A stretch of DNA of 64,000 bases from positions 558,001-622,000 of the forward strand of contig NW_025963783.1 of assembly GCF_023055435.1 (NCBI RefSeq). The letters run 5' to 3'. The position numbers were made by a program, and so were the translations under genes. Of this stretch, positions 25,840 to 63,050 are shown in pieces. The notes under the pieces were generated by a model. That model was not told the DNA's origin and searched no databases. It worked only from the letters and a program-made list of their open reading frames with translations. The first letter of the stretch is position 1, and each line of letters starts with the position of its first letter. Origin of the DNA: Haliotis rufescens. Taxonomy: Eukaryota.

Positions 25840-28800
25840 GCCGGTCTACACCCGTCAGCCCTCTCAGTTTCATCATCCGACCCTCTCCGGCCACACCGTC
25901 CAATTCACTCAGCCTACACCATCCAACCCTCTCAGTTCACACCTCCAACCCTCTCAGTCTACACCGTCCAACTCTCAGTCGACACCCTCCAACCCTTTCA
26001 GTCCACACCGTCCAAGCCTCTCACTCTACACCGTCAAACCCGCTCAGTCTACAACATCCAACCTTCCCAGTCTACACCGCCCAAGCCTCTCAGTCTACAC
26101 CGCCCAACCCTCTCAGTCTACACCCTCCAACCCTCTCAGTATACACCGTCCAACCCCTCAGTCTGCACCGTCCAACCCGCTCAGTCGACACCCTCCGACC
26201 CTTTCACTCTACACCGTCCAACCCGCTCAGTCTACAACCTCCAACCTTCCCAGTCTACACCACCCAAGCCTCTCAGTCTACACCGCTCAACCCTCTCAGT
26301 CGACACCCTCCAACCCCCTCAGTCTTCACCGTCCAACCCTCTCAGCCTACACTGTACAACCCTCTCAGCCTACACCGTCCAACGCTCTCAGTCTACGCCC
26401 TCCAACCCTCTCAATCTACACCGTCCAACCCTCTCAGTCCTCACCGTCCAACGCTCTCAGTGTACGCCCTCCAACCCTCTCAGTCTACACTGTCCAACCC
26501 GCTCAGTCTACACCCTCCATTCCTCTCAGCCTACACCCTCCAACCCTCTCAGCCTACACCGTCCAACGCTCTCAGTCTACACCGTCCAACCTCAAAGTCT
26601 ACACCGTCCAACCCTCTCAGTCTTCACCATCCAACCCTCTAAGCCTACACCATCCAAACCTCTCAGCCTACACCCTCCAACCCTCTCAGCCTACACCGTC
26701 CAACCCGCTCAGTCTACAACCTCCTACCTTCCCAGTCTACACCGCCCAAGCCTCTCAGTCTACACCGCCCAACCCTCTCAGTCGACACCCTCCAACCCTC
26801 TCAGTCTACACCGTCCAACCTCTCAGTCTGCACCGTCCAACCCGCTCAGTCGACACCCTCCAACGCTCTCAGTCTACACCATCCAAGCCTCTCAGCCTAC
26901 ACCGTCAAACCCTTTCAGTCTACACCCTTCATCCCGCTCAATCTACTACGTCCAACACTTTCCGTCTACGCCGTCCAACCCTCTCCGTCTACGCCGTCCA
27001 GCCCTCTCAGTCTACACCGTCCAACCCTCTCAGCCTAAACCCTCCAACCCTCTCAGCCTACACCGTCCAACCTCGCAATCTACACCGTCCACTCCACTCA
27101 GTCTACAACCTCCAACCCTCCTAGTCTACACCGTCCAAGCCTCTTAGCCTACACCGTCCAACCCTCCCATTCTACACCCTCCAACCCTCTCAGTCCACAC
27201 CGTCCAACCCTCTCAGTCCTCACCGTCCAACGCTCTCAGTGTACGCCCTCCAACCCTCTCAGTCTACACTGTCCAACCCGCTCAGTCTACACCCTCCATT
27301 CCTCTCAGCCTACACCCTCCAACCCTCTCAGCCTACACCGTCCAACGCTCTCAGTCTACACCGTCCAACCTCAAAGTCTACACCGTCCAACCCTCTCAGT
27401 CTTCACCATCCAACCCTCTAAGCCTACACCATCCAAACCTCTCAGCCTACACCCTCCAACCCTCTCAGCCTACACCGTCCAACCCGCTCAGTCTACAACC
27501 TCCTACCTTCCCAGTCTACACCGCCCAAGCCTCTCAGTCTACACCGCCCAACCCTCTCAGTCGACACCCTCCAACCCTCTCAGTCTACACCGTCCAACCT
27601 CTCAGTCTGCACCGTCAAACCCTTTCAGTCTACACCCTTCATCCCGCTCAATCTACTACAACCAACACTTTCCGTCTACGCCGTCCAACCCTCTCCATCT
27701 ACGCCGTCCAGCCCTCTCAGTCTACACCGTCCAACCCTCTCAGCCTAAACCCTCCAACCCTCTCAGCCTACACCGTCCAACCTCGCAATCTACACCGTCC
27801 ACTCCACTCAGTCTACAACCTCCAACCCTCCCAGTCTACACCGTCCAAGCCTCTTAGCCTACACCGTCCAACCCTCCCATTCTACACCCTCCAACCCTCT
27901 CAGTCCACACCGTCCAACCCTCTCAGTCTACACCGTCCAACCCTTTCAGTCTACACCGTCCAACCCTCTCAGCCTACACCGTCCAACCCTTTAGTCTACA
28001 CTGCTCAACCCTCCCAGTCTACACAGTCCAACCCTTTATCCTACACCGTCCAACCCTCTAAGCCTACACTGTCCAACCCTCTCAGTCTTCACCGTCCAAC
28101 GCTCTCAGTCTACGCCCTCCAACCCTCTCACTCTACACCGTCCAACCCTCTCAGTCTTCACCGTCCAATGCTCTCAGTCTACGCCCTCCAACCCTCTCAG
28201 GCTACACCCTTCATTCCTCTCAGTCTGAACCGTCCAACCCGCTCAGTCGACACCCTCCAACCCTTTCAGTCCACACCGTCCAAGCCTCTCACTCTACACC
28301 GTCCAACCCGCTCAGTCTACAACCTCCAATCTTCCCAGTCTACACCGCCCAAGCTTCTCAGTCTTCACCGCCCAACCCTCTCAGTCGACACCCTCCAACC
28401 CTCTCAGTCTACACCGTCCAACCTCTCAGTCTGCACCGTCCAACCCGCTCAGTCGACACCCTCCAACCCTTTCAGTCCACACCATCCAAGCCTCTCACTC
28501 TACACCGTCAAACCCGCTCAGTCTACAACATCCAACCTTCCCAGTCTACACCGCCCAAGCCTCTCAGTCTTCACCGCCCAACCCTCTCAGTCGACACCCT
28601 CCAACCCTCTCAGTCTACACCGTCCAACCTCTCAGTCTGCACCGTCCAACCCGCTCAGTCGACACCCTCCAACGCTCTCAGTCTACACCATCCAAGCCTC
28701 TAAGCCTACACTGTCAAACCCTTTCAGTCTACACCCTTCATCCCGCTCAATCTACTACGTCCAACACTTTCCGTCTACGCCCTCCAACCCTCTCCTTCTA

Positions 28801-30700
28801 CGCCGTCCAGCCCTCTCAGTCTACATCGTCCAACCCTCTCAGCCTAAACCCTCCAACCCTCTCAGCCTACACCGTCCAACCTCGCAATCTACACCGTCCA
28901 CTCCACTCAGTCTACAACCTCCAACCCTCCCAGTCTACACCGTCCAAGCCTCTTAGCCTACACCGTCCAACCCTCCCATTCTACACCCTCCAACCCTCTC
29001 AGTCCACACCGTCAAACCCGCTCAGTCTACAACATCCAACCTTCCCAGTCTACACCGCCCAAGCCTCTCAGTCTACACCGCCCAACCCTCTCAGTCGACA
29101 CCCTCCAACCCTCTCAGTCTACACCATCCAAGCCTCTCAGCCTACACCGTCAAACCCTTTCAGTCTACACCCTTCATCCCGCTCAATCTACTACGTCCAA
29201 CACTTTCCGTCTACGCTGTCCAACCCTCTCCGTCTACGCCGTCCAGCCCTCTCAGTCTACACCGTCCAACCCTCTCAGCCTAAACCCTCCAACCCTCTCA
29301 GCCTACACCGTCCAACCTCGCAATCTACACCGTCCACTCCACTCAGTCTACAACCTCCAACCCTCCCAGTCTACACTGTCCAAGCCTGTTAGCCTACACC
29401 GTCCAACCCTCCAATTCTACACCCTCCAACCCTCTCAGTCCACACCGTCCAACCCTCTCAGTCTACACCGTCCAACCCTTTCAGTCTACACCGTCCAACC
29501 CTCTCAGCCTACACCGTCCAACCCTTTAGTCTACACTGCTCAACCCTCCCAGTCTACACAGTCCAACCCTTTATCCTACACCGTCCAACCCACTAAGCCT
29601 TCACTGTCCAACCCTCTCAGTCTTCACCGTCCAACGCTCTCAGTCTACGCCCTCCAACCCTCTCACTCTACACGGTCCAACCCTCTCAGTCTTCACCGTC
29701 CAATGCTCTCAGTCTACGCCCTCCAACCCTCTCAGGCTACACCCTTCATTCCTCTCAGTCTGAACCGTCCAACCCGCTCAGTCGACACCCTCCAACCCTT
29801 TCAGTCCACACCGTCCAAGCCTCTCACTCTACACCGTCCAACCCGCTCAGTCTACAACCTCCAATCTTCCCAGTCTACACCGCCCAAGCTTCTCAGTCTT
29901 CACCGCCCAACCCTCTCAGTCGACACCCTCCAACCCTCTCAGTCTACACCGTCCAACCTCTCAGTCTGCACCGTCCAACCCGCTCAGTCCACACCATCTA
30001 ACCCTTTCAGTCCACACCGTCCAAGCCTCTCACTCTACACCGTCAAACCCGCTCAGTCTACAACATCCAACCTTCCCAGTCTACACCGCCCAAGCCTCTC
30101 AGTCTACACCGCCCAACCCTCTCAGTCGACACCCTCCAACCCTCTCAGTCTACACCGTCCAACCTCTCAGTCTGCACCGTCCAACCCGCTCAGTCGACAC
30201 CCTCCAACGCTCCCAGTCTACACCATCCAAGCCTCTCAGCCTACACCGTCAAACCCTTTCAGTCTACACCCTTCATCCCGCTCAATCTACTACGTCCAAC
30301 CCTTTCCGTCTATGCCGTCCAACCCTCTCCGTCTACGCCGTCCAGCCCTCTCAGTCTACACCTTCCAACCCTCTCAGCCTAAACCCTCCAACCCTCTCAG
30401 CCTACACCGTCCAACCTCGCAATCTACACCGTCCACTCCGCTCAGTCTACAACCTCCAACCCTCCAAGTCTACACCGTCCAAGCCTCTTAGCCTACACCG
30501 TCCAACACTCTCAGTCGACACCCTCCATCGTCTCAGTCTACACCGTCCAACCCTCTCAGTCTACACCGTCCAACCCTCCAAGTCTACAGCGTCCAACCCT
30601 CTCAGTCTACACCCTCCAACCCTCTTATTCTACACCGTCCTACCCTCTAAGTCTACACCCTCCAACTCTCTCAGTCTACACCCTCCAACCCTCTCAACCG
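25840..30700. repeat. 23-bp satellite array (consensus CAGTCTACACCGTCCAACCCTCT) with higher-order repeats
   Basis: About 4.9 kb of tandem monomers; variant blocks recur at 779 bp (26460/27239) and 1535 bp (28168/29703). Confidence 0.97.
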
Positions 30701-32202
30701 ACCACTTAGGTGCTCTTATTTTACGAATAATGACAGTAGTGCTACCCTGTGTCAGATACCAGTCTGCAGTTGGGTGTCAGGTGACAGTTTTAGTTTTATA
30801 GTTCTCTTTAGGGGTACGTATATGTAGCCAACAAGCAACAATGCTTTACTTTACATGTCCTATCTTTAGCTGTGGGGTATCTGCGAATCATAAAGACAAC
30901 ATCTACTTTTATAAATATGGGAATGGTGCAGTGTAAACGACAGGATGGTAAGTCATTAAAAAGGAAAAGTGCGGAAGAAACGCCCAACATATAGAGTCTG
31001 TCGATGAGCATAATATACCAATAATTTTGAAGGAAACAATCATTTTCTTCATAAAGACAAATGTCGGTTTGGTGAGTCTCGCCCAGCTACGTGCGTGTGT
31101 GGTTTGTTGTGAATTAAGGCTCATGTTACACGTAGCTGTAAGGGCTCTACACACGACACCTATAAGGTCGAGGATCAATGGGTTTACCTCAAACACTGAT
31201 AGTTGATAGGCATGCTGTGTGCAGGCTTTTCTTGAAGCTGTTTGTTGAGAAGACAGACATGTGAACACTTGCCACATGGGAGTACTAACTTAAATTGATT
31301 TTTTATTGAAAAACAGCATGACACACACATAATATTGTACACAGACTTCAGGTCATCATGACCTATCATGTTGCATTTATTGTTTTCATGATCATTCAGA
31401 CCGCAATACACATACTTGTATTACCTTGGAATATCAGTATATGATAATTATATGAAAACTGAACTGAAATGCGGTCATTTCGGTTATTATTGATCTGGTT
31501 TTGAGGTTTCATTACGCCTACGGTTGTGACATAAACAGAAATTCGTATACATTCAATCGTAAATCATTATTGTAGGAGTGGTTGGTGGACACGGGATTGC
31601 TACATGGCGGAACAGCAGTAGTTGACTCGTGGGTCACCGGCTAGCCATACAGTTTGTCTAGACTTCTTTTCTCTTATGTTTTTTTTTAAAAAATGAACGG
31701 TGTAATTTCAGATCAGAAAGAATTCCCCATGGTACAATAAATAAAATATAATTTTTGATCCGTATGATATTTCAACAGAACACCACGTATACTTGACATG
31801 GTATCACAGTAGTTGAGAGAACAATACTGCCAATATCCATCGCATTGACCTCTGCATCTCAGTGCTAGAATACGTGTTGTAGATTGCATATGTAGGAACA
31901 CCATACCCTTGCCGGTGGGTTTCACCGAAATGGTAAAAGTATGCATCACTTCGGTCTCTCCTCCAAAACCAAACCGACTTCTTACAGGTGTTATATGCAT
32001 TGTTATTTTGTACGCATACCTATTGTGTATTTAGTTACATTATCACAACATTTTTAATATCAATTCGTTTGAACTATAGTGCCGGTCATTAATAAGTTTA
32101 AACTATGTTAAAATCGTTTACGTCACATGGTAATTCCAACACTATATATCTTCTCCCTGTAAATAGCCTTCATTGAGAATGAGGCCAGCGAATACATACG
32201 TA

Positions 32203-36790: not shown

Positions 36791-39700
36791 TACCGTATTT
36801 CCTCTATTTGACACTATCCGCCGTCTATTAATTTCGCGAGAGCCCTTGACAAAAACCCGGAGAAACTTTACACCAACTGAAAGAAGAGGTGTGTGAGGTA
36901 TTTAATGACCATGCCCGTGACAGTGACAGTGACTGTAAGTTCACACCAAGCGATATTGTGAATACTCACCGTCTTAGATCAAGTACAGTAAATCGCCCCA
37001 GTCCGGTTATTGTTCGTTTCACGTCGTTAGACTTGAAAATCAGGGCGATTGCGCTCCGTCCAAAGCTTAAAGAGAATGGTTACGGAATCGCAAATGACTT
37101 GACTATAGCTCAACGGAAGACGCTACAGGAGCTACGACGTAACAATAAGCGCGGATATTACAAGAAAGGGGTTCTTGTGGTTGAACATATGCAGACTACA
37201 GATAGACGTCATGAGTCTCCACCAGGCCACCCAGACACAGACCAGGCGACTTCAAAGACTCCGCCCAGGGCGGGTGTGCCAGCTAGTGTCCGAAACCCAC
37301 AGAATGAAGATGATTTTCGCAGATAGGGGTGTGGCCAAGGCCGTAACTGTAACTCTAATACCAGACTAACCACTTCTTTTGTATTCTGGAACATTGCTGG
37401 ACTACAATCGAAGCTCCACGATACTGACTTTATCTCATTCATACACCAATTTGATGTCATCAGTTTATGTGAAACATGGTCATCCCATAGTGATAGTCAA
37501 CTATGTTTCCCCGGATATATTACTCACTCCATCCCAGCTGAGCAAATATCATTTTTTGGGCGACTGTCAGGTGGTCTGGTTGTTTTGATAAAACAACACC
37601 TAGTCCAATATGTGAAAGGTTGTGTGACCGGTCCCAACGGAATTTTCATCGTACTGGACAAGCGCTTATTTTGTTTGGGAAAGGACACCATTGTAGCTTG
37701 TGTATATGTCCATCCTGAGGGCTCAACCTGGTATAAATCGGCTACAACGAAGTGTGGTATAAGTTTATTCTTTGAATCACTACTTGACGTGTTACAACGA
37801 TTTGGAGACTAAAGTATTTTGATTGGTGGCGACCTTAACTCTAGAACTGGCACAGATCCCGACGGAATTGAATGTGACATTGCCGAAAGGCTTGGGATTG
37901 ATGATTTTTCGGACATTTATGATAATATTGATATTAAGAGACATTCGTGTGATTCAAAAGTTAATAATTTTGGTAAAGTGCTATTGAATGTTTGTAGTGC
38001 TTTAAATTTATATATTTGTAATGACCGATGTGGTTCGGACGCTGGGAAAGGAGACTTTACATTTATAAGTCATATTGGACAGAGTGTTGTTGATTATATC
38101 ATAACAGGCCCTGACTTGTTTACATCATGTGACCGCTTCGATGTCCTATCTAGGTCAGATTCAGATCATCTGCCTGTTGCGTGTTCATTTGTGTCACGTG
38201 ATATGGCTTCTGTGGGTGCTAGCTTATGTAATGCACGAGATGTGCGTGACAACTCCCGTTATGTGTGGAATGAAGATAAAGTGTCAACATTTAGAGATGT
38301 ATTACTTTCTGACAAGTCAGCTTCAGTGTTTGATCAGTGTAATGAACATATTTTATCTGGAAAATTTGATGATGCTGTAACTTTATTCTCAGATTTATTA
38401 GGTAATGCAGCAGAATGTATGCGTAAGTTTTGCCCATCTGCTTGGTTAGTCGATAAGCAACCTTGGTTTGATAAAGAGTGTGAATTTCTTAGATTTGAAA
38501 AGCAAAGACTGCTTAAAGTTTATAGACTACTTGGGGATCATTTGGCACTTTCAAACTATCTACATGCAAGAAATAAATATACAAATATACTCCATAACAA
38601 AAGAAAAGCCTACCAAGATAAAATTCTTAGTAATATGGTGACAGGCATACACAACAGCAAAATATTTTGGTCACAATTGAAGCTACTCTCTGGTGAGGGA
38701 AGGAGACGCTCTCCTAATATAGAACTAGGAGATTGGTATCAGCAGTTTAAGAACTTATTTGGTGAATACTCTTCTTCAGAGGTTGAGGAGAATTTAGTTT
38801 TTGACGATGTTAATTTTGACGAAACAACTCAGAGTATTCTTGATTCCCCTATTTCACAGGATGAAGTGCTTGATGCGATTTCAGGATTGAAAAAATAATA
38901 AAGCTGCGGGAGATGATGGACTGATAGCAGAAATGTTTAAGTCTTCTCCTGATGTTCTGGTTCCTTTTTTGACATTCTTCTTTAATGCTATATTTGATTC
39001 TGCATATTTTCCCTCATCTTGGGCTGTTGGCCACATTGTTCCTATATATAAGAAAGGCGATGCCAATTCTCCCACTAATTATAGGGGTATCACTATCTTA
39101 AGTGTATTCAGTAAACTTTATATTTCTATTTTAAACAGAAGACTTCAGTTTTGGTCGGAATCCTATGATAGACTAGTAGAGTCTCAGGCTGGTTTTAGGA
39201 GTGGATATTCCACAACTGATAATATTTTTGTTTTAAATTCAGTAATAGAGAAATATTTGGCTAAGAAACGAGGTGTGATTTATGCCTTGTTTGTTGATTT
39301 TGCCAAAGCCTTTGATTCCATAGATAGATCCAAATTGCGTATGGTACTATACAAAAATGGTATTTCTCCGAAAATGTTCTGTTGTATACAGTCAATTTAT
39401 AAACAAGTTTTGGCATTGGTCAAATACAATAACTCATTTTCTGATATGTTTAGCTGCCGTAAGGGAGTTCGTCAAGGATGTGTCCTTAGTCCCATTTTGT
39501 TTGCCTTGTTCATAAATGATCTTGCCATAGATATTGAATCCAGTTGCGCACATGGTATCCAATTTCATCCAGATGTAGTTCAATTGTTTTTATTACTTTT
39601 CGCAGATGATGTCATTCTCATAGCAGATACTGTTTATGGTCTCCAGAAAAGAATCAATGTGTTAGAATGTTATTGTAAAGATTATTCATTAACAGTCAAT

Positions 39701-40993
39701 ATTGATAAAACTAAAGTAGTAGTTTTTAAAAATGGGAGTGTTCTTTCAAAATATGAAAAATGGGTTTACGATGGAAAATTGTTGGAATGTGTAACTACAT
39801 ATAAATACCTTGGTGTATTATTTTTTCGAAATCTATCTTGGAGTGCACATATATCTAATGTTGTTAATCAAGCTAAAAAGGTTTTGTTTAAGCTTTTGAA
39901 GTCCCTACAGCTAATTAAACCTACTCCTATGAATATTTTCTTTAAAATTTTTGATGCTAAAGTTGTGCCAGTACTTCTTTACGGTGCAGAAGTTTGGGGT
40001 TTATCTTTATCGTTTTGCGAGGAGATTGAAGTTGTTCATACACTTGCTTGTAAACGTATTATGGGAGTTAAGTCAGCAACTTCCAATCATGTTGTGCGTG
40101 GAGAGTGTGGGAGATACCCTTTGTATATCTATGCTTTCAAAAGATGCTTGAATTATTGGTGTAAGATTTTAAAGATGCCCGATTCGCGTTATCCACGAAA
40201 AAGTTACAATATGCTTGTGCAGCAGGCCATAGCAGGTAAGACTAATTGGGCCTCTAGAGTTAAATTACTTTTGTACGCCTATGGCTTTGGCTACGTATGG
40301 GAAAATCAGCATCTTGTTATTTCTATTTCATTTATTGATGAGTTCATACAAAGATTAAAATGCTCTTATGAACAAGATTGGCATTTTGCTTTGACCAATA
40401 GCCCCAAGTATTCATCATATCTTTGTTATAAATTTAGGTTTAGCAGGGAATTTTATTTATCGGCTATTACAATCAATAAGTTTGGCGTTGCACTGGCACG
40501 TTTTAGAGCTAGCTCCCACTCGCTCCACATAGAAACCGGGAGATATTTTGGTATCCCAAGACAGCGAAGGTTATGTATGGGTTGTAAAACAGGCTATGTT
40601 GAGTCTGAATACCATTTTGTATTGGTTTGTGAAAAATATTATGCTCTCCGAGTGACATATATTCCTCAAAAATATTATGTAAATCCATCAATAGAACAAT
40701 TTTACATACTTATGTCGTCTCTGCATCAGTCAACAATTAGAAGTCTGGCTTGTTATATTTACCACGCTTTTAAGTTAAGGAATTCATTTTTGCAGAAGTA
40801 ATATTCTTTATCTATGAATGCCTTGCTGTTGTGTATTTAGGTGTACACAGTTGTATTTTTATACATGTCTGGTGAACCGAATTGTACTATGGGCCGCTGG
40901 CCCACTCATGTACTGAATAAACAGATTAGACTCGGCGTGTATTAGAGACCTGTCTGGTATTAGAGACCCAGCGTGTATAAGAGGAAATATAGA
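36791..40993. mobile_element. Small TIR element (MITE) split by the LINE insertion
   Basis: Left end taccgtatttcctctat (36791); right end ataagaggaaatatag (to ~40993) is its approximate inverted repeat; internal tattagagacc repeats. Confidence 0.6.
36850..40930 (+). mobile_element. Near-intact non-LTR retrotransposon: ORF1 C-terminal part (to 37326) and ORF2 APE-RT (37327-40801)
   Basis: ORF1 THRL..PSPVIVRF..IANDLT; ORF2 WNIAGL, ETW, GGDLNSRTG, SDHLP, NYRGITIL, QAGFR, FVDFAKAFD, QGCVLSP, FADD, HFVLVC; only two lesions (TAA 37810-37812, extra A in 38890-38895). Confidence 0.97.
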
Positions 40994-41566
40994 TATGTTT
41001 TACAGTTCATATGGGGTGATCGATCGGCAGCCATTTTCTGTGAATCGATATGTAGGCTATCTATGTATTCATACTCACGTTTTTTTGTGAAAAGGCTTAA
41101 TATATTTGAAAGGGGTTTCCGTAGCAAAAAGAAAACCTCTTTTTAACCAATAAGAATCAAGCATTCAACAATGTCATGGTAGAATATGGCGTCACGTATT
41201 TTCCATTGAATACGTGAACACCCTTGAACACACAAACTTTACCTGTTATCAGATCTGGGTTATGAGACCCGCATATCCAGCAAACCTTTTGCACTATACA
41301 AATACACCCTCCAACCCTCTCACTCTACACCGTCAGCCTACTCAGTCTATACAAATACAAACTATAAATAGTACATACCCAACCTGTTTTCTCTACAGCT
41401 TTCAATATGCAGTCTACACTACATAAAATTGATTGCATTAAGCGACGGTTCAGTGTAGATATCAAACTGGAGAAGGAATGCATGATATGTTGTGACAAGC
41501 AGCAGATTAACATAAACAGCAACAGGTAATAGATGGGGTGCTCCCGGTTTCTCAACATTCCTTAAA

Positions 41567-41735
41567 ACAAGATAGACACAATTTTATGGATAACAACTTC
41601 TTTAATACGGTGAAAAGCGACGTTTCGGTATATAGATCCTATAGTTGCTTGACAACGGTATAAGGATCTCTTACCGAAACGTCCCTTTTCACCGTATTAA
41701 AGAAGTTGTTATCCATAAAATTGTGTCTATCTTGT
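41567..41735. repeat. ~78-bp-arm inverted repeat made of Penelope-like terminal-repeat sequence
   Basis: Arms 41567-41643 and 41658-41735 are near-perfect reverse complements; related single copy at 13866-13960. Confidence 0.85.
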
Positions 41736-41955
41736 CATCCGTCAACTTCTATGTAATGCCTATCAAACAATTTCAAACAAACCCAGTCAGACGTAGAACA
41801 ATAGAGGGATTAGTTTGGGAACACCGTGTTCGCCAATTAGCACTTATGCCAGGGTCTTATAATAACTGTTTTTTTGTCATTTTGGCCAATGTATTTGGTG
41901 AAATGATCAGAGGTTTGGACTGCAGACTGAGTATTGCCGTAGCGAAAGTGTTAAC

Positions 41956-42426
41956 CTATTGATCAGAAGAGCTGCTGCCTTGCCATTGGTTCCTCTAGCC
42001 CACACAGATGATGTTTGGCTCAACGCACTCAACGACGCCCCTCTCCATGATGTGAGAGTTCTCCGATTTACTGACTTTGTGACTGAAGTTTGGGTGGAGG
42101 GCGATCATGGACGAAGTACCTGGAATCACCACGACACCGTCGGCCCAAGAACGACCAACCAAGTAGAGGGCTGGCACTTCAAGCTCACCTCCATCATGGG
42201 CAGTCCCCACCCCAACATCTACAGAATTATTGACTTTTTAAAGACAGAACAAGCCTACACCGGTGCCCATATCCTGCAGCTTGTAGGTGGGGGTATGCTT
42301 AGACCCAGGAGATCTAAGTATCGACATCTTGAGACCAGACTTGATGCAGAAAAGACACACTTACACGAGGGAAGAAAGTCAGCAATTGAATTTGAAGATG
42401 CAGTGGCCCATTTTGTACGTTTGTGA
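41956..42426 (+). mobile_element. MULE (Mutator-like) transposase C-terminal fragment
   Basis: AALPLVP..F.D.V...W....WN....RTTNQVEGWH..L.....HPNIY..I..LK.EQ motif. Confidence 0.8.
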
Positions 42427-43678: not shown

Positions 43679-45332
43679 AAACAAATAACTGCAACTTGTG
43701 TCATTGTGACGGGGAGGCAACTCTGGCTACATCTTGGTGTTCTGACTGTGACGTCTCGCTGTGTGGTGGATGTCTTAAGGCCCATGTTCGTAATCCTGCC
43801 TCCCGTCACCATGACGTATCTGACTTGTCAAGGGTTGTCAAGGTGAAGAAAAGACGCAAACCTATGTGTAAAGAACATCCAGATCAGAGGATGCAGTTCT
43901 ACTGCAAGGACTGTAAGAAACTACAATGTCAATCGTGTTGCATCTTGTATCACAGAAAGTGTGAGTCCATTGTCTCGCTTGCGTCTGTGTTGCCTGAAAT
44001 GCAAAACACTCTTCAAACTGTAAAACAGAAACTAGAGACTGATTTAGCAACATCAAACACTCGCCTTGCAAAGAAGGAAGCAAAACGTACTGAAATTAAC
44101 GAGAACAAGTCCAGCCTTCAGTCTCAGGTCCGATCAGCAACCCACACCGCCATTGACTTGATAAAGAAGAAGGAGAGACAACTCCTTGAACAGATAGATG
44201 ACGTCACAGAGAAACAAATAGGACAGCTGAAAGGAGACATGAAGCGTGAGGCGATGGCCAGGCAGATGATTCGTCAACACTCGGAGTTGCTGGGCAGAGC
44301 TCTGGAGTCTGAGAGTGACGTGGACATCTGTGAGATGTATCTGTGGAGTGAGTCGGAGGAGGCAGCCACTGTGTCTGTCCCAGAGTCAGGTATGGAGGAT
44401 GTATCTGGGGGCAAGGCTTGTTTCATACATAATCGTTATTTGATGTGTGAGGAACTAAACGATCTACACTTAGGTGTGATTGATATCATTGTTGAAGATG
44501 TTTTTGATTCTACATCTACAGCAGTTCTGTATGACACAGTGGACATATATGCAGAAGATGATAAGGAAAAACCCGAAGCTTATGACGTGGCAGTGTTTGT
44601 TGTCGACAACACAGACACTATAGTTGTCACAGATTACAACAAGTGTGTGAAATCCTTCTACAAAAGAAACAAGAAGTCATGTCAGAGTAAGCTGGGGTTA
44701 CAAAGCGCCCCTCGACGTATTGCTAAAATAAACAACAGTAAAATCTTGTGACTCTCCCTGACACTAAAGAAATAATAATAGTAGAAGTGAAGCCTGAGCT
44801 GGTTCTTCAATCATCCATCTCTACAAGGAAGGGGTACTACGGTCTGACATCCCTGACACCGACAACCCTGGCAGCAGGATCCGTGTCTCCTCCTTGTGTG
44901 GACATCCTGGACATGGCGGGGAATGTGTTGAGGACCCTGGATCCTGTCACAGATGGAAGGAAACTTGTATCAACTCCTCAGTACCTCAGTACCACCAGGC
45001 AGGGTAACATCCTCGTGTCTTGCAGTGGATACGTAGCTCGCAGAGTCCTCTGTTTGACTCCTCATGGAGATGTTGTGTTCAGATATCAGCCTAAACAGCA
45101 AAGGCCTTCCCCTCGTGGAATCACTGAAACCAACACAGAACATATCCTGGTTATAGATCGCAGAGCAAAATGTGTGATTCAACTCAGCGCTTCTGGGACG
45201 TTTGTGAGGGAAGTGTTGACGTCACGTGATGGTATTACATCTCCGTATTGTCTCCACCTGTCTGAAAGTCAGCACCTGTATGTCACAGATGGTGACTGTG
45301 TGAAGATCTACAGATTTACAAGAAACACCTAA
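43679..45332 (+). pseudogene. TRIM-A1: B-box1, B-box2, coiled coil, NHL-like propeller exon; RING exon absent, 1-bp frameshift near 44745
   Basis: CNLC..WCSDC..LCGGC..H..H and CKEH..YCKDC..CQSC..HRKC; aaaatcttgtg versus aaaatggctgtg in A2. Confidence 0.88.
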
Positions 45333-48024: not shown

Positions 48025-50085
48025 TCATGTACATCTTGGTTTGGTGCGTGTTATAAACCTGTAGACCATCACACAGTGGCGGTTGGTGACGTACAGACGC
48101 CTCCGCTTATCAAAGTACAGGCCGTAAGGGAAAGTGATGCCATCCCTTGACGTCAGAACGTCTCTCAACCATGTGCCTGAACTACTCAAATGAACCACTT
48201 TGTTTGACATGTCGTCAACAACAAGCATGTCGCCTGTGTTTGTTCCAGTGATGCCGCATGGATTCATTGCTCGGTGTTGTCCTGTGGGTACATAATTAAA
48301 CACAACATCTCCGTTTGGTGTCATACATAGCACATGACTTCTTGGGGCATGACTGCATGATTCAGCGTCCTCAACACATTCCCCGCCATGTCCAGGATGT
48401 CCACACAGGGAGGCGACCCGGATCCTGCTGCCAGGGTAGTCGGTGTCAGGGCTGTCAGACCAAAGTACTTCTTCCTCGTTAAAATGTATGATTGGAGAAC
48501 AAGGTCAGGGTTCACTTCAATCACTATTATCTCCCTTGTCTCGGGAAGGGTCATGGCCATGTGATGGGCATTAAGTTTTGCAATCCGCCGAGGGGGGCTC
48601 TGAACAGAGAGCTTACTCTGACAGGGTTGAGTATTGCGTGTGTAGAAGGATTTGACGCACTTGTTGTTATTATCAGTTACAACTATGGTGTCTGTACCGC
48701 CTTCATTGAACACTGCCACATCATAAACATGAGGTAAACTTGTCTCAGCTTCTGTTTGTATGACCACTGTGTCGTGCAGAACTGATGACGATGTAGAATC
48801 AAACACATCTTCATATATGGTATCAATTTCACCCAAGCTTACCTCGTGTATATTGTTACAGATCTCTTCACACTCATGCATAAAACATACTTTCTCTCTC
48901 AGTTCATATTTTATATCTGAATCTGGGTCGTATACTGTAGGAAACTCCTCTGACTCACACCACAGGTACATCTCATAGATGTCCATTTCACTTCCAGACT
49001 CCAGAGCTCTGTCTATCATCACAGAGTGATGACTTATCATCCGCTTGGCCACCTCCTCAGACTTCATTTCAGTTTTCAGTCGCTCGATGTGTTTCTCAGT
49101 GGCGTCATCCAGTTGGTCCAGGAGTTGTCGTTCCTTCTTCATTTTGGCTTCTGTGACTGTCTGGATTGTGGATCGGATCTGACACTGAACGGTGACTCTG
49201 TTCTTTATTACCTCAGTCCGTTTGGTTTCTAAAACTGTTAGCAAACTGTCTGTTGCTTGTAAATGAGACGCTAGTCTTTCCTTAACTCCTGTAACACAGC
49301 TGATCAGTTCTGGCATAACGGATTCAAACGGTAGAATTGCCTCACACTTTCTGTGATACAGGATGCAACAGGACTGACATTGTAGTTTCTTACAATCTTT
49401 GCAGTAGAACTGCATGCTTTGATCTGGATGTTGCTTACAGAATGGTTTGCGTCTTTGGTTGATTTTGACCTCTGTGGACAGGTCAGAAACGTCATGGTGA
49501 CGAGTGGCAGGAATACGTCTGTGAGCCTTCTGGCATCCCTCACAAAGACTGATGTCACAGTCAGCACACCAAGCAGTTGCTGGAGGTGCCGCTCCTTCAT
49601 CACTACATAGGATGCACTTCGGGTATCTGCAAGTATGCATACAAATGTGTCAGTTATTTTTCAACAATAGAACTATAATATTACGAAATAACCTTTAGCC
49701 TTTCAATGTACATACAAGGAATTCACAAACCAGGGATAGAAGAACGTAGCAATGTTAGGATGAGTTCAACACTGGTAGCCTATTCGGAAATACCTTTTGT
49801 CTTGGGATTAAATGAATCCAAGAGACCCTGAATCAAAAAGCTGGGTTTCACCTCCTGTGCCCACTCTTCAACTGGCCTGCTTGTGTTGGCAACTTTGGTC
49901 ATCTTTCTACAGAATGGACAGAGGAGAGACTTGGCACTGATGGCTTATGGTCTGGTTTCAGTGTAGCTAACGACACACTTCCGACAAAATGTGTGATAAC
50001 ACACAAGTGTACAGGGGTCAGCAAAGACGTCCATGCAGATGCTGCACGTCAAGAAGTTGTCTTTCAATTGTCGGTGCACTGCCAT
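48025..50085 (-). pseudogene. TRIM-B1: RING exon 50085-49794, exon 2 49626-48025
   Basis: C3HC4 RING, two B-boxes, coiled coil, NHL-like repeats; TAA at 49945-49947, 1-bp deletion at the start of exon 2, ~76-bp deletion at about 48358 relative to B2. Confidence 0.92.
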
Positions 50086-55987: not shown

Positions 55988-58787
55988 ATGGCGATGCACA
56001 AGACATTGACAGACAACTTCTTGACGTGCAGCATCTGCATGGACGTCTTTGATGACCCCTGTACACTTGTGTGTTATCACACATTTTGTCGGAAATGTGT
56101 CGTTAGCTACACTGAAACCAGACCAGAAGCCATCAGTGCCAAGTCTCTCCTCTGTCCATTCTGTCGTAAGATGACCAAAGTAGCCGACTCAAACAGGCCA
56201 GTTGAAGAGTGGGCACAGGAGGTGAAACCCAGCTTCTTGATTCAGGGTCTCATGGATTCCTTCGCTCCCTGCAGTCAAGGTATAAGTATACACCAGACCA
56301 TGGTGGTTGGACTTCCACTCAATCCATATAACATTACTTGAATATCTCTGTCATTTCTTTCAGTGGCACACTATTGGACCTGCAGTCAATCCTGTAACAT
56401 ATTTGCTCGTTTGCTCGTTTGAGACAAATTATTGATTCTGAAGTAATGTAATTGACCTTGTCTGGTCACAATGCCACGTAATGTTAACGCCTTTATTATT
56501 GCATACGAACACAAAAATACATTTCTCAATTTATTGTTGTATTAACGTAATTTTGTAATTTTCAAGTTTAATAGAATTATATTTTTAGTGATATTCTAAC
56601 ATGTCATCGCAAGAATGACTTGTAAGCTTTTAAAGACGAGTGCTACTTGTAGTTTTTTTTTATTACCAGTTGATAGGTACATAATTTTAACAGGTACTGT
56701 ATTTTCTATGTTGGAATTCCAAAATGAACCAACCTAAACGTGAAATGCGTACTTGATTATTCCAGTTATACATCGCGTGTCAGTTTGATGTGTGTGAAAA
56801 ACTCGATCCGATGTCAAATGTCACTTTGGTGAAACCCACGAGCACACGAATGGTACCGACATACCATGAAACATAATGAGGGCGACTCTGGGATTTGAGG
56901 GATGCAGACATGCAGATTTAGAAGACTGCGTCACTGGTGCCCCTTAAATGGGTACTGATAAAGGAAAGGATAATTGTGTTTATAAAGATGACGCAAATAG
57001 GTGCTCTTATATTCATATTTTCTATTCATGTGAAGCACTTTATAAGTGCATCCTAACAGAACCTATATTTCTCTGTACACCACCTTAAAAAATATCTATG
57101 TCAGCATAATACATGTGTATCTTTCTTTTCAGCAACAAATAACTGCAACTTATGTGATGAGGACGGGGAGACAACTCCAACCAATGCTTGGTGCGTCGAA
57201 TGTAACGTCCCACTCTGTGATGGATGCCTGAAGGCACATAGACGTATCCCTGCCTCCCGTCACCATGACGTATCTGACTTGTCACGGGATGTCAAGGTGA
57301 AGAAAAGACGCAAACGTATGTGTAAAGAACATCCAGATCAGAGGATTCAGTTCTACTGCAAGGACTGTAAGAAACTGCAATGTCAATCGTGTTGCATCTT
57401 GTATCACAGAAAGTGTTAGTCCATTGTCTCGCTTGAATCTGTGTTGCCTGAAATGCAAAACACTCTTCAAAATGTAAAGCAGAAACTAGAGTCTGATTTA
57501 GCAACATCAAACACTCGCCTTGCAAAGAAGGAAGCACAATGTACTGAAATTAACGAGAACAAGTCCAGCCTTCAGTCTCAGGTCCGATCAGCAACCCACA
57601 CCGCCATTGACTTTATAAAGAAGAAGGAAAGACAACTCCTGGAACAAATAGATGACGTCACAGAGAAACAAATAGGACAGCTGAAAGGAGACATGAAGCG
57701 TGAGGAGATGTCCAGGCAGAAGATTCGTCAACACTCGGAGTTGCTGGGCAGAGCTCTGGAGTCTGAGAGTGACGTGGACATCTGTGAGATGTATCTGTGG
57801 AGTGAGTCGGAGGAGGCAGCCACTGTGTGTGTCCCGGAGTCAGGTATGGAGGATGTATCTGGGGGCAAGGCTTGTTTCATACACGATCGTCATCTGATGT
57901 GTGAGGAACTAAACGATCTACACTTGGGTGTGATTGATATCATTGTTGAAGATGTTTTTGATTCTACATCTACAGCAGTTCTGTATGACACAGTGGACAT
58001 ATATGCAGAAGATGATAAGGAAAAACCCGAAGCTTATGACGTGGCAGTGTTTGTTGTCGACAACACAGACACTATAGTTGTCACAGATTACAACAATTGT
58101 GTGAAATCCTTCTACAAAAGAAACAAGAAGTCATGTCAGAGTAAGCTGGGGTTACAAAGCTCCCCTCGACGTATTGCTAAAATAAACAACAGTAAAATGG
58201 CTGTGACTCTCCCTGACACTAAGAAAATAATAATAGTAGAAGTGAAGCCTGAGCTGGTTCTTCAATCAACCATCTCGACAAGGAAGGGGTACCACGGTCT
58301 GACATCCCTGACACCCACAACCCTGGCAGCAGGATCCGTGGATCCTCCCTGTGTGGACATCCTGGACATGGCGGGGAATGTGTTGAGGACCCTGGATCTT
58401 GTCACAGATGGAAGGAAACTTGTATCCAATCCTTGGTTCCTCAGTACCACCACGCAGGGTAACATCCTCGTGTCTTGCGATGGATTCGTAGCTGGCAGAG
58501 TCCTCTGTGTGACGCCTCATGGAGGTGTTGTGTTTACGTATCAGCCTTTACAGCAGAGTCCTTCCCCTCGTGGAATCACTGAAACCAACAAAGGACATAT
58601 CCTGGTTATAGATTGCACTGCAAAATGTGTGATTCAACTCAGCGCTTCTGGGTCGTTTGTGAGGGAAGTGTTGACGTCACGTGATGGTATTACATCTCCG
58701 TATTGTCTCTACCTGTCTGAAAGTCAGCACCTGTATGTCATCGATGGTTACTGTGTGAAGATCTACAGATTTACAAGAAACACCTAA
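55988..58787 (+). pseudogene. TRIM-A2: RING exon 55988-56279, exon 2 57133-58787; single in-frame TAG at 57417-57419
   Basis: RING CSIC..CYHTFCRKC..CPFC, phase-1 GT-AG intron, two B-boxes, coiled coil, NHL-like repeats; GAG in A1 is TAG here, otherwise open. Confidence 0.9.
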
Positions 58788-59119
58788 GATGTGGAAGCAT
58801 AACGGTTGTTCCTGATAGAATCCGTCACCATCTGAGTGACAATAGTTTATGTAAATATGAATTTCCAATACAAGAGAACAATCAGTCTAGACTGTCCGCC
58901 GAAACAGAATAAAATTTGACGTAAAGTGCAAAATAGTTATGAAATTTATATGGATGGACCAGTGATATTGGGTGATGACACCAGGTGTTCGCGAAAAGGG
59001 TAAGCATGCCCGGCAAACAAATATTCTGTTACTGAATGTGCATGTATTGCGTGTATATTTAGGTTAGCGGGGAGGGGAGGGCGGATTTCGGGCAAGAGCA
59101 AAGGTCACCAACAACGTGT

Positions 59120-59305
59120 GCCAGTTGTTGGAGGCGACTTAATGGATCAGGTGACCTGGTTGATTGTATGTCATCGTATCCCAAATACATGGATCGATGC
59201 TCATGATATCAATCACTGGACTATCTGACCACACTGGATTAATTACAGCCCACCCTCATATAGCTGGAATATTGCCGAGTGCTGCTACGAACAACAAACA
59301 AACAA
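59120..59305 (+). mobile_element. SINE family B, present only in unit 2
   Basis: gaggcgactt...ggatcgatgctcatgatatcaatcactgga...ggaatattgccgagtg. Confidence 0.75.
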
Positions 59306-60627
59306 TTGGCGCGCATTTTTTGTGGCATGTAAGCAACTGCTAAAAAGTAAAGCCTTGTTGCCTCGTGAAGTATATAATTATATATTTGTAAATACAATAA
59401 AACTCTGATAATTAAACCATTAACCACTTCCTGTCAGTTTAAGTGTATTTGTAAACATGTACATGCATAAACAGGTGTTTACATTTCTCTCATAATAAAA
59501 GTGCAGTCACTACCTTTGTACAGATTGTCTTTCTTGTTTAAATGAATACATCACACACACCACACCACTATGGAATCCGTTCTACGACGGGAATATATGT
59601 TAGAAGATGGGAAAAGGGATCGTTTCAGCGCTTGGTTCTTTTCGTGGAACACGACGCATGTCTTTGTAACAAACATCAGTCAACGCTTTGTGATGTGAAG
59701 GGAGAAATGGTGGTTAAAATCTCATGTGACCCCGTTACTTACAAATACATATTGTTTCCATATATAGTGATGCTGTTTTTTTCGTTCATCCAAGGACAAG
59801 TTTAGAAAATCTGAGCGAATGTGTCTGTTCGTCGACACCAACCACAACACTGCCGACATAATCCCACGAAACAGTCGTGAATGCCATGGTTATCTATCAA
59901 AAGTATGGAAAATAGTTTACAGAAATACATCCGTTTCATCGACAGTATTAATACCTCACCAAGGCTCTGAACTCACTATACACCACTGGGGACAGATAAC
60001 ACGTACTTCCTCGTTGCCCAAAGGTTATTTCTCGAAATTATCAGTTTGTTTCAATCGATAAAACGGTATATGATTGGCTACGGATGTGTCGTGAATTGCC
60101 AAAAGAATCCTACATAGCATATATGTCTCTGTTCTCGAAATAATATTCTGCCCAGATCATATAAATATAAATGGCAAATGTTTCCATATGTTATTTTTAA
60201 CCGTTTATTTGGCGCAGAATCGACTTGTGATTAAGATTGCTAAACCTATAGATGCAAGTGCGACATCCGCGTCGAAGCAGGCTTAGTTTCTCTAATGGCA
60301 GCTATGTTTCAATAAAAAAGTCACCAATTATATATGACAATGTCCATTCTTTAATTTCACATTTGATTTACCAGGGGTATTTATGTTTATTGCTATATCT
60401 CATATTCTGTTTTGACTCTCGATGCGAGATATTATGGTTCAGTTTTCACCGGTGTTTCGTTGTCGGGAACAACAGTGACGCCATCAACTGTTTGAATGTT
60501 TGGCAGAGTAAGAGATGGGCTTTATACATTGTATCCATGCGGGCACTAGGACCCATGCCTCTGGCGTGACAAGCCAAGCTTTAACTACTAGTCTACCCCT
60601 CCTTTACGAACACCCCCTCCCGCGCCT

Positions 60628-60850
60628 TCGGGAAGATCTGTGTTTGAATCTTCAGAAACCCATGCTTGTCGTATGAGTTGACAAACGGGATCGGGTGGTC
60701 AGGCTCGCTGACTTGGTTGATGCATGTCACCGTATTCCAATCGATCGATGGTCATGATGTTAATCACTGGAACTTCAGACCGCCGTCTTGTAGCTTGAAG
60801 AGTGTTGAGTGCGGCGTTAATGAACCTACCGTCCAACCATCAAACAAACA
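60628..60850 (+). mobile_element. SINE family B, present only in unit 2
   Basis: cccatgcttgtcgta...cgggatcgggtggtcaggctcgctgacttgg...gagtgcggcgttaa. Confidence 0.8.
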
Positions 60851-60996
60851 GTAAGCTGTAGCAATAGGTGACTGATATATTAAGGTGTTATGAAGAAATG
60901 AAGCTTTTCTCATTTTGACGTGACAGTTTGACTCCGTTGGATACATATCCGTGAGGTATTAGTGATTTGTTTGTTTGTTTGTTGTTTATCGCCGCA

Positions 60997-63050
60997 CGTA
61001 CAGACGCCTCCGTTTATCAAAGTACAGACCATAAGGGAAAGTGATGCCATCCCTTGACGTCAGTACGTCTCTCAACCATGTGCCCGAACTACTCGTCAAC
61101 AACAAGCATGTCGCCTGTGTTTGTTCCAGTGATGCCGCATGGATTCATTGCTCGGTGTTGTCCTGTGGGTACATAATTAAACACAACATCTCCGTTTGGT
61201 GTCATACATAGCACATGACTTCTTGGGGCATGACTGCAAGATACCAGGATGTAACCTTGACTGGTGGTAGATAGGAATAAAGGATCTGATACAAGGGTCC
61301 CCCCTACTATGACAGGATTCAGCGTCCTCAACACATTCCCCGCTATGTCCAGGATGTCCAAACAGGGAGACGACCCGGATCCTGCTGCCAGGGTAGTAGG
61401 TGTCAGGGTCGTCAGACCAAAGTACTTCTTCCTCGTTGAAATGTATGATTGAAGAACAAGGTCAGGGTTCACTTCAATCACTATTATCTCCCTTGTCTCG
61501 GGAAGGGTCACGGCCATGTGATGGGCATTAAGTTTTGCAATCCGCCGAGGGGGGCTCTGAACAGAGAGCTTACTCTGACAGGGTTGAGTATTGCGTGTGT
61601 AGAAGGATTTGACACACTTGTTGTTATTATCAGTTACAACTATGGTGTCTGTACCGCCTTCATTGAACACTGCCACGTCATAAACATGAGGTAAACTTGT
61701 CTCATCTTCTGTTCGTATGTCCACTGTGTCGTGTAGAACTGATGTCGATGTAGAATCAAACACATCTTCATATATGGTATCAAATTCACCCAAGCTTACC
61801 TCGTGTATATTGTTACAGATCTCTTCACAATCATGCATAAAACATACTTTCTCTCTCAGTTCATATTTTATATCTGAATCTGGGTCGTATACTGTAGGAA
61901 ACTCCTCTGACTCACACCACAGGTACATCTCATAGATGTCCATTTCACTTCCAGACTCCAGAGCTCTGTCTATCATCACAGAGTGATGACTTGTCACCTG
62001 CTTGGCCATCTTTTCAGGCTTCATTTCAGTTTTCACTCGCTCGATGTGTTTCTCAGTGGCGTCATCCAGTTGGTCCAGGAGTTGTCGTTCCTTCTTCTTT
62101 ATGGCTTCTGTGACTGTCTGGATTATGGATCGGATCTGACACTGAACGGTGACTCTGTTCTTTATTACCTCAGTCCGTTTGGTTTCTAAATCTGTTAGCA
62201 AACTGTCTGTTGCTTGTAAATGAGACGCTAGTCTTTCCTTAACTCCTGTAACACAGCTGATCAGTTCTGGCATAACGGATTCAAACGGTAAAATTGTGAT
62301 ACAGGATCACTTTCTGTGATACAGGATGCAACAGGATTGACATTGCAGTTTCTTACAATCTTTGCAGTAGAACTGCATGCTTTGATCTGGATGTTGCTTA
62401 CAGAATGGTTTGCGTCTTTGGTTGATTTTGACCTCTGTGGACAAGTCAGATTCGTCATGGTGACGAGTGGCAGGAATACGTCTGTGAGCCTTCTGGCATC
62501 CCTCACAAAGACTGATGTCACAGTCAGCACACCAAGCAGTAGCTGGAGGTGCCGCTCCTTCATCACCACATAGGATGCACTTCGGGGTATCTGCAAGTAT
62601 ACATACAAATGTGTCAGTTATTTTTCAACAATAGAACTATAATGTTACGAAATAACCTTTAACCTTTCAATGTGCATACAAGGAATTCACAAACCAGGGA
62701 TATGAAGAACGTAGCAATGTTAGGATGAGTTCAGCACTGGTAGCCTATTCGGAAACACCTTTTGTCTTGGGATTAAATGAATCCAAGAGACCCTGAATCA
62801 AAAAGCTGGGTTTCACCTCCTGTGCCCACTGTTCAACTGGCCTGAGTGAGTTGACTACTTTGGTCATCTTACGACAGAATGGACAGAGGAGAGACTTGGC
62901 ACTGATGGCTTCTGGTCTGGTTTCAGTGTAGCTAACGACACATTTCCGACAAAATGTGTGATAACACACAAGTGTACAGGGGTCATCAAAGACGTCCATG
63001 CAGATGCTGCACGTCAAGAAGTTGTCTGTCAATTGTCGGTGCACTGTCAT
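60997..63050 (-). pseudogene. TRIM-B2: RING exon 63050-62759, exon 2 62590-~60997
   Basis: Intact RING and B-boxes; TGA at 62307-62309 created by a small templated insertion; 26-bp deletion at about 61094; C-terminus lost at about 60997. Confidence 0.92.

What the first reader, a model, noticed from the sequence alone, without database searches (positions are those of the whole stretch)
56005..63033. 179-bp perfect gene-conversion tract homogenises the RING exon between two divergent, inverted TRIM paralogues
Seen: 56005-56183 (TRIM-A2, +) is base-for-base identical to the reverse complement of 62855-63033 (TRIM-B2, -). Elsewhere A and B diverge strongly: their coiled-coil and NHL regions look only about half identical in amino acids by eye, and I see no similarity between their introns. 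Over this tract B2 matches its inverted neighbour A2 better than its own duplicate B1 (B1 has aaagac, gctgac, cggaag, tgtaga where A2/B2 share acagac, gatgac, cggaaa, tgtcgt). A B-box 2 synonymous site also sorts by unit, not by gene (CTA in A1/B1, CTG in A2/B2). Inference: the tail-to-tail arrangement acts as a long inverted repeat that keeps the E3-ligase module uniform while the substrate-binding propeller diverges, a possible diversification mechanism in an invertebrate TRIM cluster.
Basis: partly seen in the sequence, partly recalled or inferred. Interest (0 to 1): 0.7.

Follow-up and report, generated by a model that had tools for sequence, protein, structure and literature searches.

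The report
Paired abalone TRIMs share one RING
In an abalone gene array, two long-diverged ubiquitin-ligase genes repeated as mirror-image pairs carry nearly the same RING exon in every copy examined, likely because they repeatedly serve as repair templates for each other, while the predicted binding face of one partner changes unusually fast and that of the other stays nearly fixed.

Summary
The 179-bp identity is exact, but it is the tail of an array-wide pattern, not a special A2/B2 event. The A+/B- unit occurs 14 times in two arrays. Across 27 RING exons A and B have 0 fixed differences in 252 nt (codons 7-90) against 107 of 411 in the coiled coil. Synonymous A-B divergence is 0.125 against 0.48 in exon 2, while outgroups give 0.61 and 0.69. 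RING and NHL trees disagree. Conversion is therefore well supported. Not supported: a preference for the tail-to-tail neighbour (P=0.93), the 'unit-sorted' CTA/CTG site, and a uniform 'E3 module' (B-boxes are not homogenised, one propeller patch is). All four window copies are broken. More striking is the asymmetry: A propellers are hypervariable on the predicted top face (27 of 28 sites; omega 2.5), B propellers are not. The scan noted hypervariable NHL tops in other invertebrates and exon conversion elsewhere in this genome before. Verdict: real, known mechanism, new paired variant.

The parts
56005..56183 (+). 179-bp perfect tract in A2 RING exon (CDS 18-196)
   Evidence: 179/179 identical to revcomp 62855-63033
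62855..63033 (-). 179-bp perfect tract in B2 RING exon
56005..56259 (+). Array-wide homogenised RING segment (about codons 7-90)
   Evidence: 0 fixed A/B differences in 252 nt over 27 copies, 12 shared polymorphic sites; pS 0.125
56017..56026 (+). Minimal B-to-A2 conversion tract: B-type letters at 56017, 56021, 56026
   Evidence: Run of 3 diagnostic sites; sister copy a2 has the A-type letters
55988..56279 (+). TRIM-A2 coding exon 1 (RING, 292 nt, phase 1)
   Evidence: Pfam zf-C3HC4 E 5.5e-9; donor used in spliced contigs
56280..57132 (+). A2 intron, 853 nt, GT..AG
   Evidence: Skipped in contigs of runs X1 and X10
57133..58787 (+). TRIM-A2 exon 2 (B-box 1, B-box 2, coiled coil, NHL propeller)
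   Evidence: Pfam B-box, PML_CC, NHL; model and Foldseek
57417..57419 (+). Premature TAG at codon 193 of A2 (shared with A3); leaves a 192-aa RING-B-box-B-box frame
   Evidence: T carried by spliced-run contigs X1 and X10
57375..57377 (+). CTG at codon 179 of A2 (B-family letter; other A copies end in A)
57960..58784 (+). Predicted six-bladed NHL propeller of A2; top-face sites hypervariable among A copies
   Evidence: pLDDT 92.3; TRIM2 NHL TM 0.81
58305..58394 (+). Second A/B homogenised patch in propeller blade 3 (about codons 491-523), A2 side
   Evidence: pS 0.15, 3 fixed differences in 99 nt; coordinates
61320..61409 (-). Second homogenised patch, B2 side
62759..63050 (-). TRIM-B2 coding exon 1 (RING)
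60996..62590 (-). TRIM-B2 exon 2; TGA at 62309-62307 (codon 192) from a short local duplication, 26-nt deletion, truncated 3' end
49794..50085 (-). TRIM-B1 coding exon 1 (RING); TAA at codon 47
48025..49626 (-). TRIM-B1 exon 2; 1-nt and 76-nt deletions; CTA (A-family letter) at codon 179
43679..45332 (+). TRIM-A1 exon 2 only; no RING exon found upstream; 1-nt deletion at codon 454
   Evidence: No RING blastn hit in window 1-49790

Best explanation
Two old TRIM-NHL paralogues, A and B, sit as an inverted two-gene unit that is repeated 14 times in two arrays, and their RING exons are nearly identical across all 27 copies examined, most likely because repeated interlocus gene conversion works wherever purifying selection has kept the two genes alike enough to pair. 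The RING exon is the most conserved part of the whole family, so it stays convertible and each event resets it (inferred); a conserved propeller patch is converted likewise. Any copy can likely act as donor; no preference for the tail-to-tail partner is seen. The 179-bp A2/B2 identity is one outcome: A2 recently took B-type letters at 56017-56026 (tract 10 to 179 bp long, donor not identifiable), the B2 lineage already carried an A-type letter, and neither has a private change in between. Separately, A copies diversify the predicted top face of the propeller under positive selection while B stays nearly fixed, so A is likely a variable intracellular sensor in a birth-and-death array and B a conserved partner (function inferred, untested).
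For: Shown: 14 units on C5 and C79. A-B pS 0.125 in RING against 0.48 in exon 2; A-outgroup pS 0.61 against 0.69, so RING silent sites are free to change. 0 fixed differences in 252 nt and 12 shared polymorphic sites. RING tree: A support 42, B not monophyletic; coiled coil and both propeller halves reciprocally monophyletic at 96-100. The H. asinina protein P0009 is B-like in exon 2 (0.66-0.78 to B, 0.44-0.65 to A) yet equidistant in RING (0.82/0.81) while A-B is 0.93, so homogenisation postdates that split. Copy a4 holds about 590 nt copied from a B gene, joined non-homologously at one end and resolving inside the RING core; best full-length donor is b3, 13 substitutions in 302 nt. Windows conserved against outgroups are the ones homogenised (Spearman 0.57, P 0.0006, 32 windows; 0.41, P 0.03 without the first five). 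A2's sister a2 (10/300 upstream, 11/507 intron) has A-type letters. Propeller: 28 sites have 4 or more residues among 14 A copies, 27 of them in DA/BC loops, P 7e-11; omega 2.5, LRT p about 2e-8, and p 0.003 for the 3 intact A copies alone; B matches its asinina orthologue at 20 of 28 of these sites, two A paralogues match at 7 of 27.
Against: One RING transfer just before amplification would explain much of it: A-B pS (0.125) still exceeds within-family values (0.066, 0.086) and a few near-diagnostic sites remain. Some shared polymorphisms may be recurrent mutation (25 such sites also occur in exon 2, several from misaligned B5). The A2/B2 run is only marginal after correcting for 182 pairs (P 0.057). 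No contig shown confirms A2's own junction (A-type start plus B-type letters); the A-flank contig of X9 has 3 differences there. Only 7 of 28 copies are intact, so much of the array is decaying. The top-face class came from DSSP topology after the variable sites were seen, not from 3D coordinates; recombination among A copies can inflate omega; kappa was only gridded in the null. B's top face is not shown to be under purifying selection by the codon test (omega about 1, few changes). No ligand, activity or induction was tested.
Confidence: 0.75

Rival explanations
1. One reading: each tail-to-tail pair acts as a long inverted repeat, and a single recent 179-bp event between A2 and B2 keeps the ligase module uniform.
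For: B2 is the only B that matches A2 over the whole 179 bp; pairwise permutation P 0.0012; both lack singletons where about 1.9 and 2.7 are expected from exon-2 rates.
Against: No private B2 letter is shared with A2, so the donor cannot be named; 7 of 27 copies have no singleton in the tract; no neighbour effect over 13 pairs (P 0.93); the longest run in bases joins non-neighbours; both genes carry premature stops.
Confidence: 0.15
2. One exon replacement in the ancestral unit (after the split from H. asinina), followed by amplification, with only occasional later exchange.
For: Both tract ends are the same in nearly all copies; A-B pS exceeds within-family pS; most A copies keep three A-type letters near the 5' end.
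Against: 12 shared polymorphic sites, graded B-type runs in A2, A4 and a7, the a4 chimera, and a second homogenised patch need several events.
Confidence: 0.2
3. Purifying selection alone keeps the RING exon alike.
For: RING is 69-78% identical to outgroup TRIMs against about 41% for exon 2; among outgroup subfamilies RING pS is also among the lowest (about 0.2-0.4).
Against: Silent sites are homogenised between A and B (0.125) but not against outgroups (0.61); the asinina orthologue is equidistant.
Confidence: 0.03
4. Assembly collapse or polishing made A2 and B2 identical.
For: A2's own junction was not seen in the listed contigs of five runs; only three letters separate A2 from a typical A in the tract.
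Against: Cannot explain the array-wide pattern: copies differ from each other by a mean of 7-10 sites in the tract; an H. cracherodii A protein has the same RING with B-type residues; run X5 holds a 140-nt contig identical to the tract from 56005, and A2's stop and splice junction recur in X1 and X10. Two of the three letters are shared with A4 and a7.
Confidence: 0.07

Closest known systems
Merohomogenization of paired leukocyte receptors (KLRC/NKG2, KLRI, KLRB, PIR; PMC3210942, passages read)
   Same: Paralogues older than the species split are homogenised over part of the gene only, in patches of a few hundred bases, by gene conversion.
   Different: There the ligand-binding domain is shared and signalling differs; here the catalytic RING is shared and the binding propellers differ. 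These are intracellular ligases, not receptors.
Primate CASP1 / CARD16 / CARD17 conversion (PMC11383037, abstract and section 10 read)
   Same: Recurrent conversion of an N-terminal interaction domain among clustered paralogues; proposed there to preserve homotypic binding.
   Different: Different domain and family; no amplified two-gene unit with a hypervariable partner.
Zebrafish NLR-B30.2 family (PMC4852459, passages read)
   Same: Domain-restricted conversion across groups, discordant domain trees, low between-group dS in one domain, positive selection in the recognition domain.
   Different: There the recognition domain is exchanged across groups; here it is the effector RING, and the recognition domain is an NHL propeller.
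Fish finTRIM, btr and trim35 families (PMC2657112, PMC3137616, passages read)
   Same: [quoted passage not shown]
   Different: B30.2 rather than NHL; no fixed pairing with a conserved inverted partner is described in the passages read; virus induction is shown there and untested here.
TRIM-NHL proteins TRIM2/TRIM3, Brat, Mei-P26, Thin (PMC9634614, PMC9732051, PMC4015489, passages read)
   Same: RING, two B-boxes, coiled coil and six-bladed NHL propeller (TM 0.75-0.81); the top face is defined by the b-c and d-a loops and binds RNA in Brat; RING dimers form through flanking helices and TRIM2/3 RINGs work as heterodimers.
   Different: These are conserved low-copy genes; here a multicopy array with a hypervariable top face, 15-20% propeller identity, and no filamin domain detected.

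Membership tests
TRIM (RBCC) | N-terminal RING finger | tested here: met
   Pfam zf-C3HC4 36.2 bits, cut-off 21
TRIM (RBCC) | One or two B-boxes followed by a coiled coil | tested here: met
   zf-B_box with 2 stretches, E 3.7e-12; PML_CC 23.4 bits, cut-off 23
TRIM (RBCC) | E3 ubiquitin ligase activity | not testable with these tools
   No assay possible
TRIM-NHL (class VII type) | C-terminal six-bladed NHL propeller | tested here: met
   Model pLDDT 92.3 with 24 strands; best solved matches TRIM2 NHL by sequence (E 1.9e-10) and fold (TM 0.81)
TRIM-NHL (TRIM2/3/71 type) | Filamin domain before the NHL (feature recalled; the Lin41 filamin-NHL entry appears) | tested here: not met
   No filamin hit at E 0.01 in A2 residues 194-648 or the B2 frame; so not filed as a TRIM2/3/71 orthologue
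TRIM-NHL | RNA binding by the top face | not testable with these tools
   No surface coordinates or binding data
Domain-restricted interlocus gene conversion (merohomogenization) | Silent sites homogenised in one segment only, against outgroup control | tested here: met
   pS A-B 0.125 against 0.48; outgroup 0.61 against 0.69
Domain-restricted interlocus gene conversion (merohomogenization) | Discordant segment trees | tested here: met
Domain-restricted interlocus gene conversion (merohomogenization) | Paralogues closer to each other than to an orthologue from another species in that segment | tested here: met
   Protein level only: A-B 0.93, B-asinina 0.82 in RING, reversed in exon 2
Arm-to-arm conversion in an inverted repeat | Partner arms more alike than other copies | tested here: not met
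   Tail-to-tail P 0.93, head-to-head P 0.38; one chimera points to a head-to-head donor
finTRIM-like diversified antiviral TRIM clusters | C-terminal B30.2 domain | tested here: not met
   C-terminus is an NHL propeller
finTRIM-like diversified antiviral TRIM clusters | Positive selection on the binding surface of the C-terminal domain | tested here: met
   A family only: omega 2.5 on top-face codons; 27 of 28 hypervariable sites there
finTRIM-like diversified antiviral TRIM clusters | Induction by infection | not tested
   Only contigs of coded runs were available

The most novel reading that the evidence does not exclude
The A/B unit is a linked sensor-and-helper pair of TRIM ligases: A supplies a fast-evolving propeller that recognises a pathogen molecule, B supplies a fixed one, and selection retains conversion of the RING and its flanking helices (plus a conserved B-box 2, pN 0.06 at pS 0.49) so that any A can form an active RING dimer with any B. 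Spliced, truncated RING-B-box-B-box products such as A2 would then tune the system.
Probability: 0.2. Interest if true: 0.78.

Novelty: new variant of a known kind. Interest (0 to 1): 0.5.

Why it matters
The conversion itself is a clear example of a known process, with the usual pattern reversed: the effector domain is shared and the binding domains differ. The array also gives a built-in contrast, a hypervariable and a conserved NHL propeller amplified together in one unit. That makes it directly testable whether invertebrate TRIM-NHL arrays act as a variable intracellular recognition system, and whether paired TRIMs co-operate through interchangeable RINGs. None of my 10 literature searches listed a paper on RING conversion or NHL diversification in abalone TRIMs; the library lacks most subscription journals.

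Tried and rejected
Neighbour-specific conversion: tested by permutation, not supported. CTA/CTG as a conversion marker: rejected, since 147 single other-family letters occur in exon 2 over 28 copies. C5 as a simple haplotig of C79: flanks do not align, units are 90-97% alike without clear 1:1 matching, and two flank probes found no long C79 match (only 40 candidates scored in each), so the relation of the two arrays stays open. A2/B2 RING complex prediction: no verdict (score 0.01, alignments not used). Read depth from contigs could not be used for copy number or expression level; no holder is on record as RNA. The tblastn used an out-of-frame query and was replaced by blastn. IQ-TREE parsing failed and was done by grid. 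Rows dropped: of 15 outgroup regions 12 were modelled, 10 kept for codon statistics (L057, L061 early stops; L059, L062, L063 interrupted) and 5 used in trees. B3 and B5 are, where their 3' parts are misaligned, and were left out from then on; A3 was also left out. Supplements of the papers were not read.
Full report
Observation. The two stretches are identical at 179 of 179 bases. They lie in the first coding exon of two inverted genes, A2 (+, ATG 55988) and B2 (-, ATG 63050). Each gene has a 292-nt RING exon and one large exon for two B-boxes, coiled coil and NHL propeller. The closest named proteins are from Haliotis rufescens, H. cracherodii and H. asinina. A model of the A2 C-terminus is a six-bladed propeller (pLDDT 92.3) whose best solved match is the TRIM2 NHL domain.

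Context. The window holds only the left edge of an array. The A+/B- unit occurs 7 times on C5 and 7 times on C79, giving 28 second exons and 27 RING exons; A1 has none (genome searches scored 40 candidates each, so these are lower bounds). By stops and indels, 7 of 28 copies are intact or nearly so: A4, a1, a6, b1, b7, B7 and b2. None of the four in the window is: A1 lacks the RING exon and has a frameshift, B1 has a stop in the RING, A2 stops at codon 193 and B2 at codon 192.

Is the RING homogenised? Yes, across the arrays. Codons 7-90 have 0 fixed A/B differences in 252 nt, against 107 of 411 in the coiled coil and 93 of 366 in the distal propeller. Synonymous difference A-B is 0.125 in the RING core and 0.48 in exon 2; against 10 outgroup TRIMs it is 0.61 and 0.69, so RING silent sites are not generally frozen. 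In the RING tree A has support 42 and B is not monophyletic; coiled-coil and propeller trees separate A and B at 96-100. The H. asinina protein P0009 is the B type in exon 2 but equidistant from A and B in the RING, so homogenisation came after that species split (protein level).

Once or repeatedly? Twelve polymorphic sites are shared by A and B in CDS 18-270. B-type runs of different length occur in A2, A4 and a7. Copy a4 carries the first 66 nt of an A exon, then about 590 nt from a B gene, returning to A sequence inside the RING core. That is what one-ended templated repair would leave (inference); the best full-length donor is its head-to-head neighbour b3 (13 of 302 differences, next 18 of 276 and about 20 of 300). 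A second patch in blade 3 is also homogenised (pS 0.15, 3 fixed differences in 99 nt). Windows conserved against outgroups are those with low A-B pS (rho 0.57). This fits conversion that follows retained homology. A single early transfer still explains part of the data, since A-B pS exceeds within-family pS.

The 179-bp tract itself. A2 and B2 each equal the majority letter at every tract position. A2 differs from typical A copies by B-type letters at 56017, 56021 and 56026, which its sister a2 lacks, so a recent B-to-A2 event is likely. B2's A-type letter at CDS 180 is shared with b5 and B4 and is older. No informative site lies between, so the tract may be 10 to 179 bp and the donor cannot be named. 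The run is significant for the pair (P 0.0012) and marginal over 182 pairs (P 0.057; 300 shuffles). Neighbouring genes are not more alike than others in either orientation. Four of B1's seven differences are private. The CTA/CTG site is a family-diagnostic site at which A2 and B1 each carry the other family's letter; B2 and A1 are ordinary there.

Independent data. Contigs of runs X1 and X10 (two studies; RNA is the tool's guess) skip the 853-nt intron at GT..AG and carry A2's stop letter; one X1 contig matches A2 over 1474 nt with 4 differences. So a spliced A2-like message with the stop exists outside this assembly. These runs were found with A2 as query, so they say nothing about rank or level. 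DNA runs X5 and X9 show the intact letter. No listed contig confirms A2's own RING junction.

What diversifies. Among 14 A copies, 28 of 270 propeller sites have four or more residues, against 1 of 277 in residues 99-375; the 12 B copies kept show none with more than three. With the top face defined as the b-c and d-a loops (PMC4015489) plus adjacent strand ends, from the model's DSSP, 27 of the 28 sites are on top and none on the bottom (P 7e-11). A-top pN/pS is 1.94 (95% 1.31-3.15), bottom 0.44, core 0.68; B-top is 0.55 with a wide interval. A codon model gives omega 2.5 for A-top (p about 2e-8), also with only the three intact copies (p 0.003); B-top is indistinguishable from 1 on few changes. 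B keeps 20 of the 28 sites against its asinina orthologue, while two A paralogues share 7 of 27. Caveats: the class was drawn after seeing the variation, from topology only, and recombination can inflate omega.

Mechanism. Shown: arrays, segment-restricted identity, discordant trees, a chimera, top-face variation in A. Inferred: recurrent conversion guided by retained homology; diversifying selection on A by a changing ligand. Speculative: A and B co-operate through interchangeable RINGs. TRIM RINGs act as dimers through flanking helices and TRIM2/3 heterodimers are active (PMC9732051), and the homogenised segment covers most of both predicted helices, but nothing here tests binding.

Comparison and verdict. 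Partial homogenisation of paralogues is known (PMC3210942, PMC11383037, PMC4852459), as are TRIM clusters with a selected C-terminal domain (PMC2657112, PMC3137616); all were read as passages, one also as abstract and section. Unreviewed notes of this scan report exon conversion elsewhere in this genome and hypervariable NHL tops in sea star, sea urchin, oyster and clam; I did not check those on their DNA and do not count them as support. What is particular here is the amplified two-gene unit with a shared RING, one hypervariable and one conserved propeller. The finding as written is real but over-interpreted at the level of the single pair. Interest 0.5; new variant of a known kind.

Noticed in passing
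window 57417-57419 and 62307-62309: A2 (and A3) and B2 are truncated by independent changes at adjacent codons right after B-box 2, giving 192- and 191-aa RING-B-box-B-box frames; the stop lies in the last exon, and A2's stop is in spliced contigs of two runs. B2's arises from a 12-nt copy of nearby sequence replacing 6 nt.
   Followed up: partly
G000:C79:1182232-1182885 (copy a4, L047): Chimeric A gene with about 590 nt inserted from a B gene's upstream region and RING exon; best donor is head-to-head neighbour b3.
   Followed up: yes
window 43700-43800 and 57150-57250; all A copies: B-box 1 of A exists as two haplotypes, 7 copies each (A1 type, A2 type), with within-A pS 0.23, far above the rest of the gene; suggests an old exchange or balanced variants.
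   Followed up: partly
G000:C101 13.3, 23.9-25.2 Mb; C79:1.51 Mb (L055-L069): A larger related TRIM-NHL family in direct tandem clusters, with variable residues at the same propeller positions, a variable number of short repeats before the propeller, and B-box pS higher than the rest of the gene.
   Followed up: partly
window 25840-30705: About 4.9 kb degenerate tandem repeat with a short period (about 23 nt by eye) and long open frames on the + strand.
   Followed up: no
window 36850-42426: LINE-like element (endonuclease and reverse-transcriptase-like frames, judged by eye) and a transposase-like fragment directly upstream of A1, where the RING exon is missing.
   Followed up: no
window 15077-16098 and 24622-25223: Tc1/mariner-like transposase fragments, judged by eye.
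   Followed up: no
G000:C5:607-686 kb and C79:1135-1225 kb: Two separate 7-unit arrays with sister-like copies (A7/a3, A2/a2, B2/b5, B6/b2, B1/b4) but unrelated flanks; whether they are divergent haplotypes or two loci is unresolved.
   Followed up: partly
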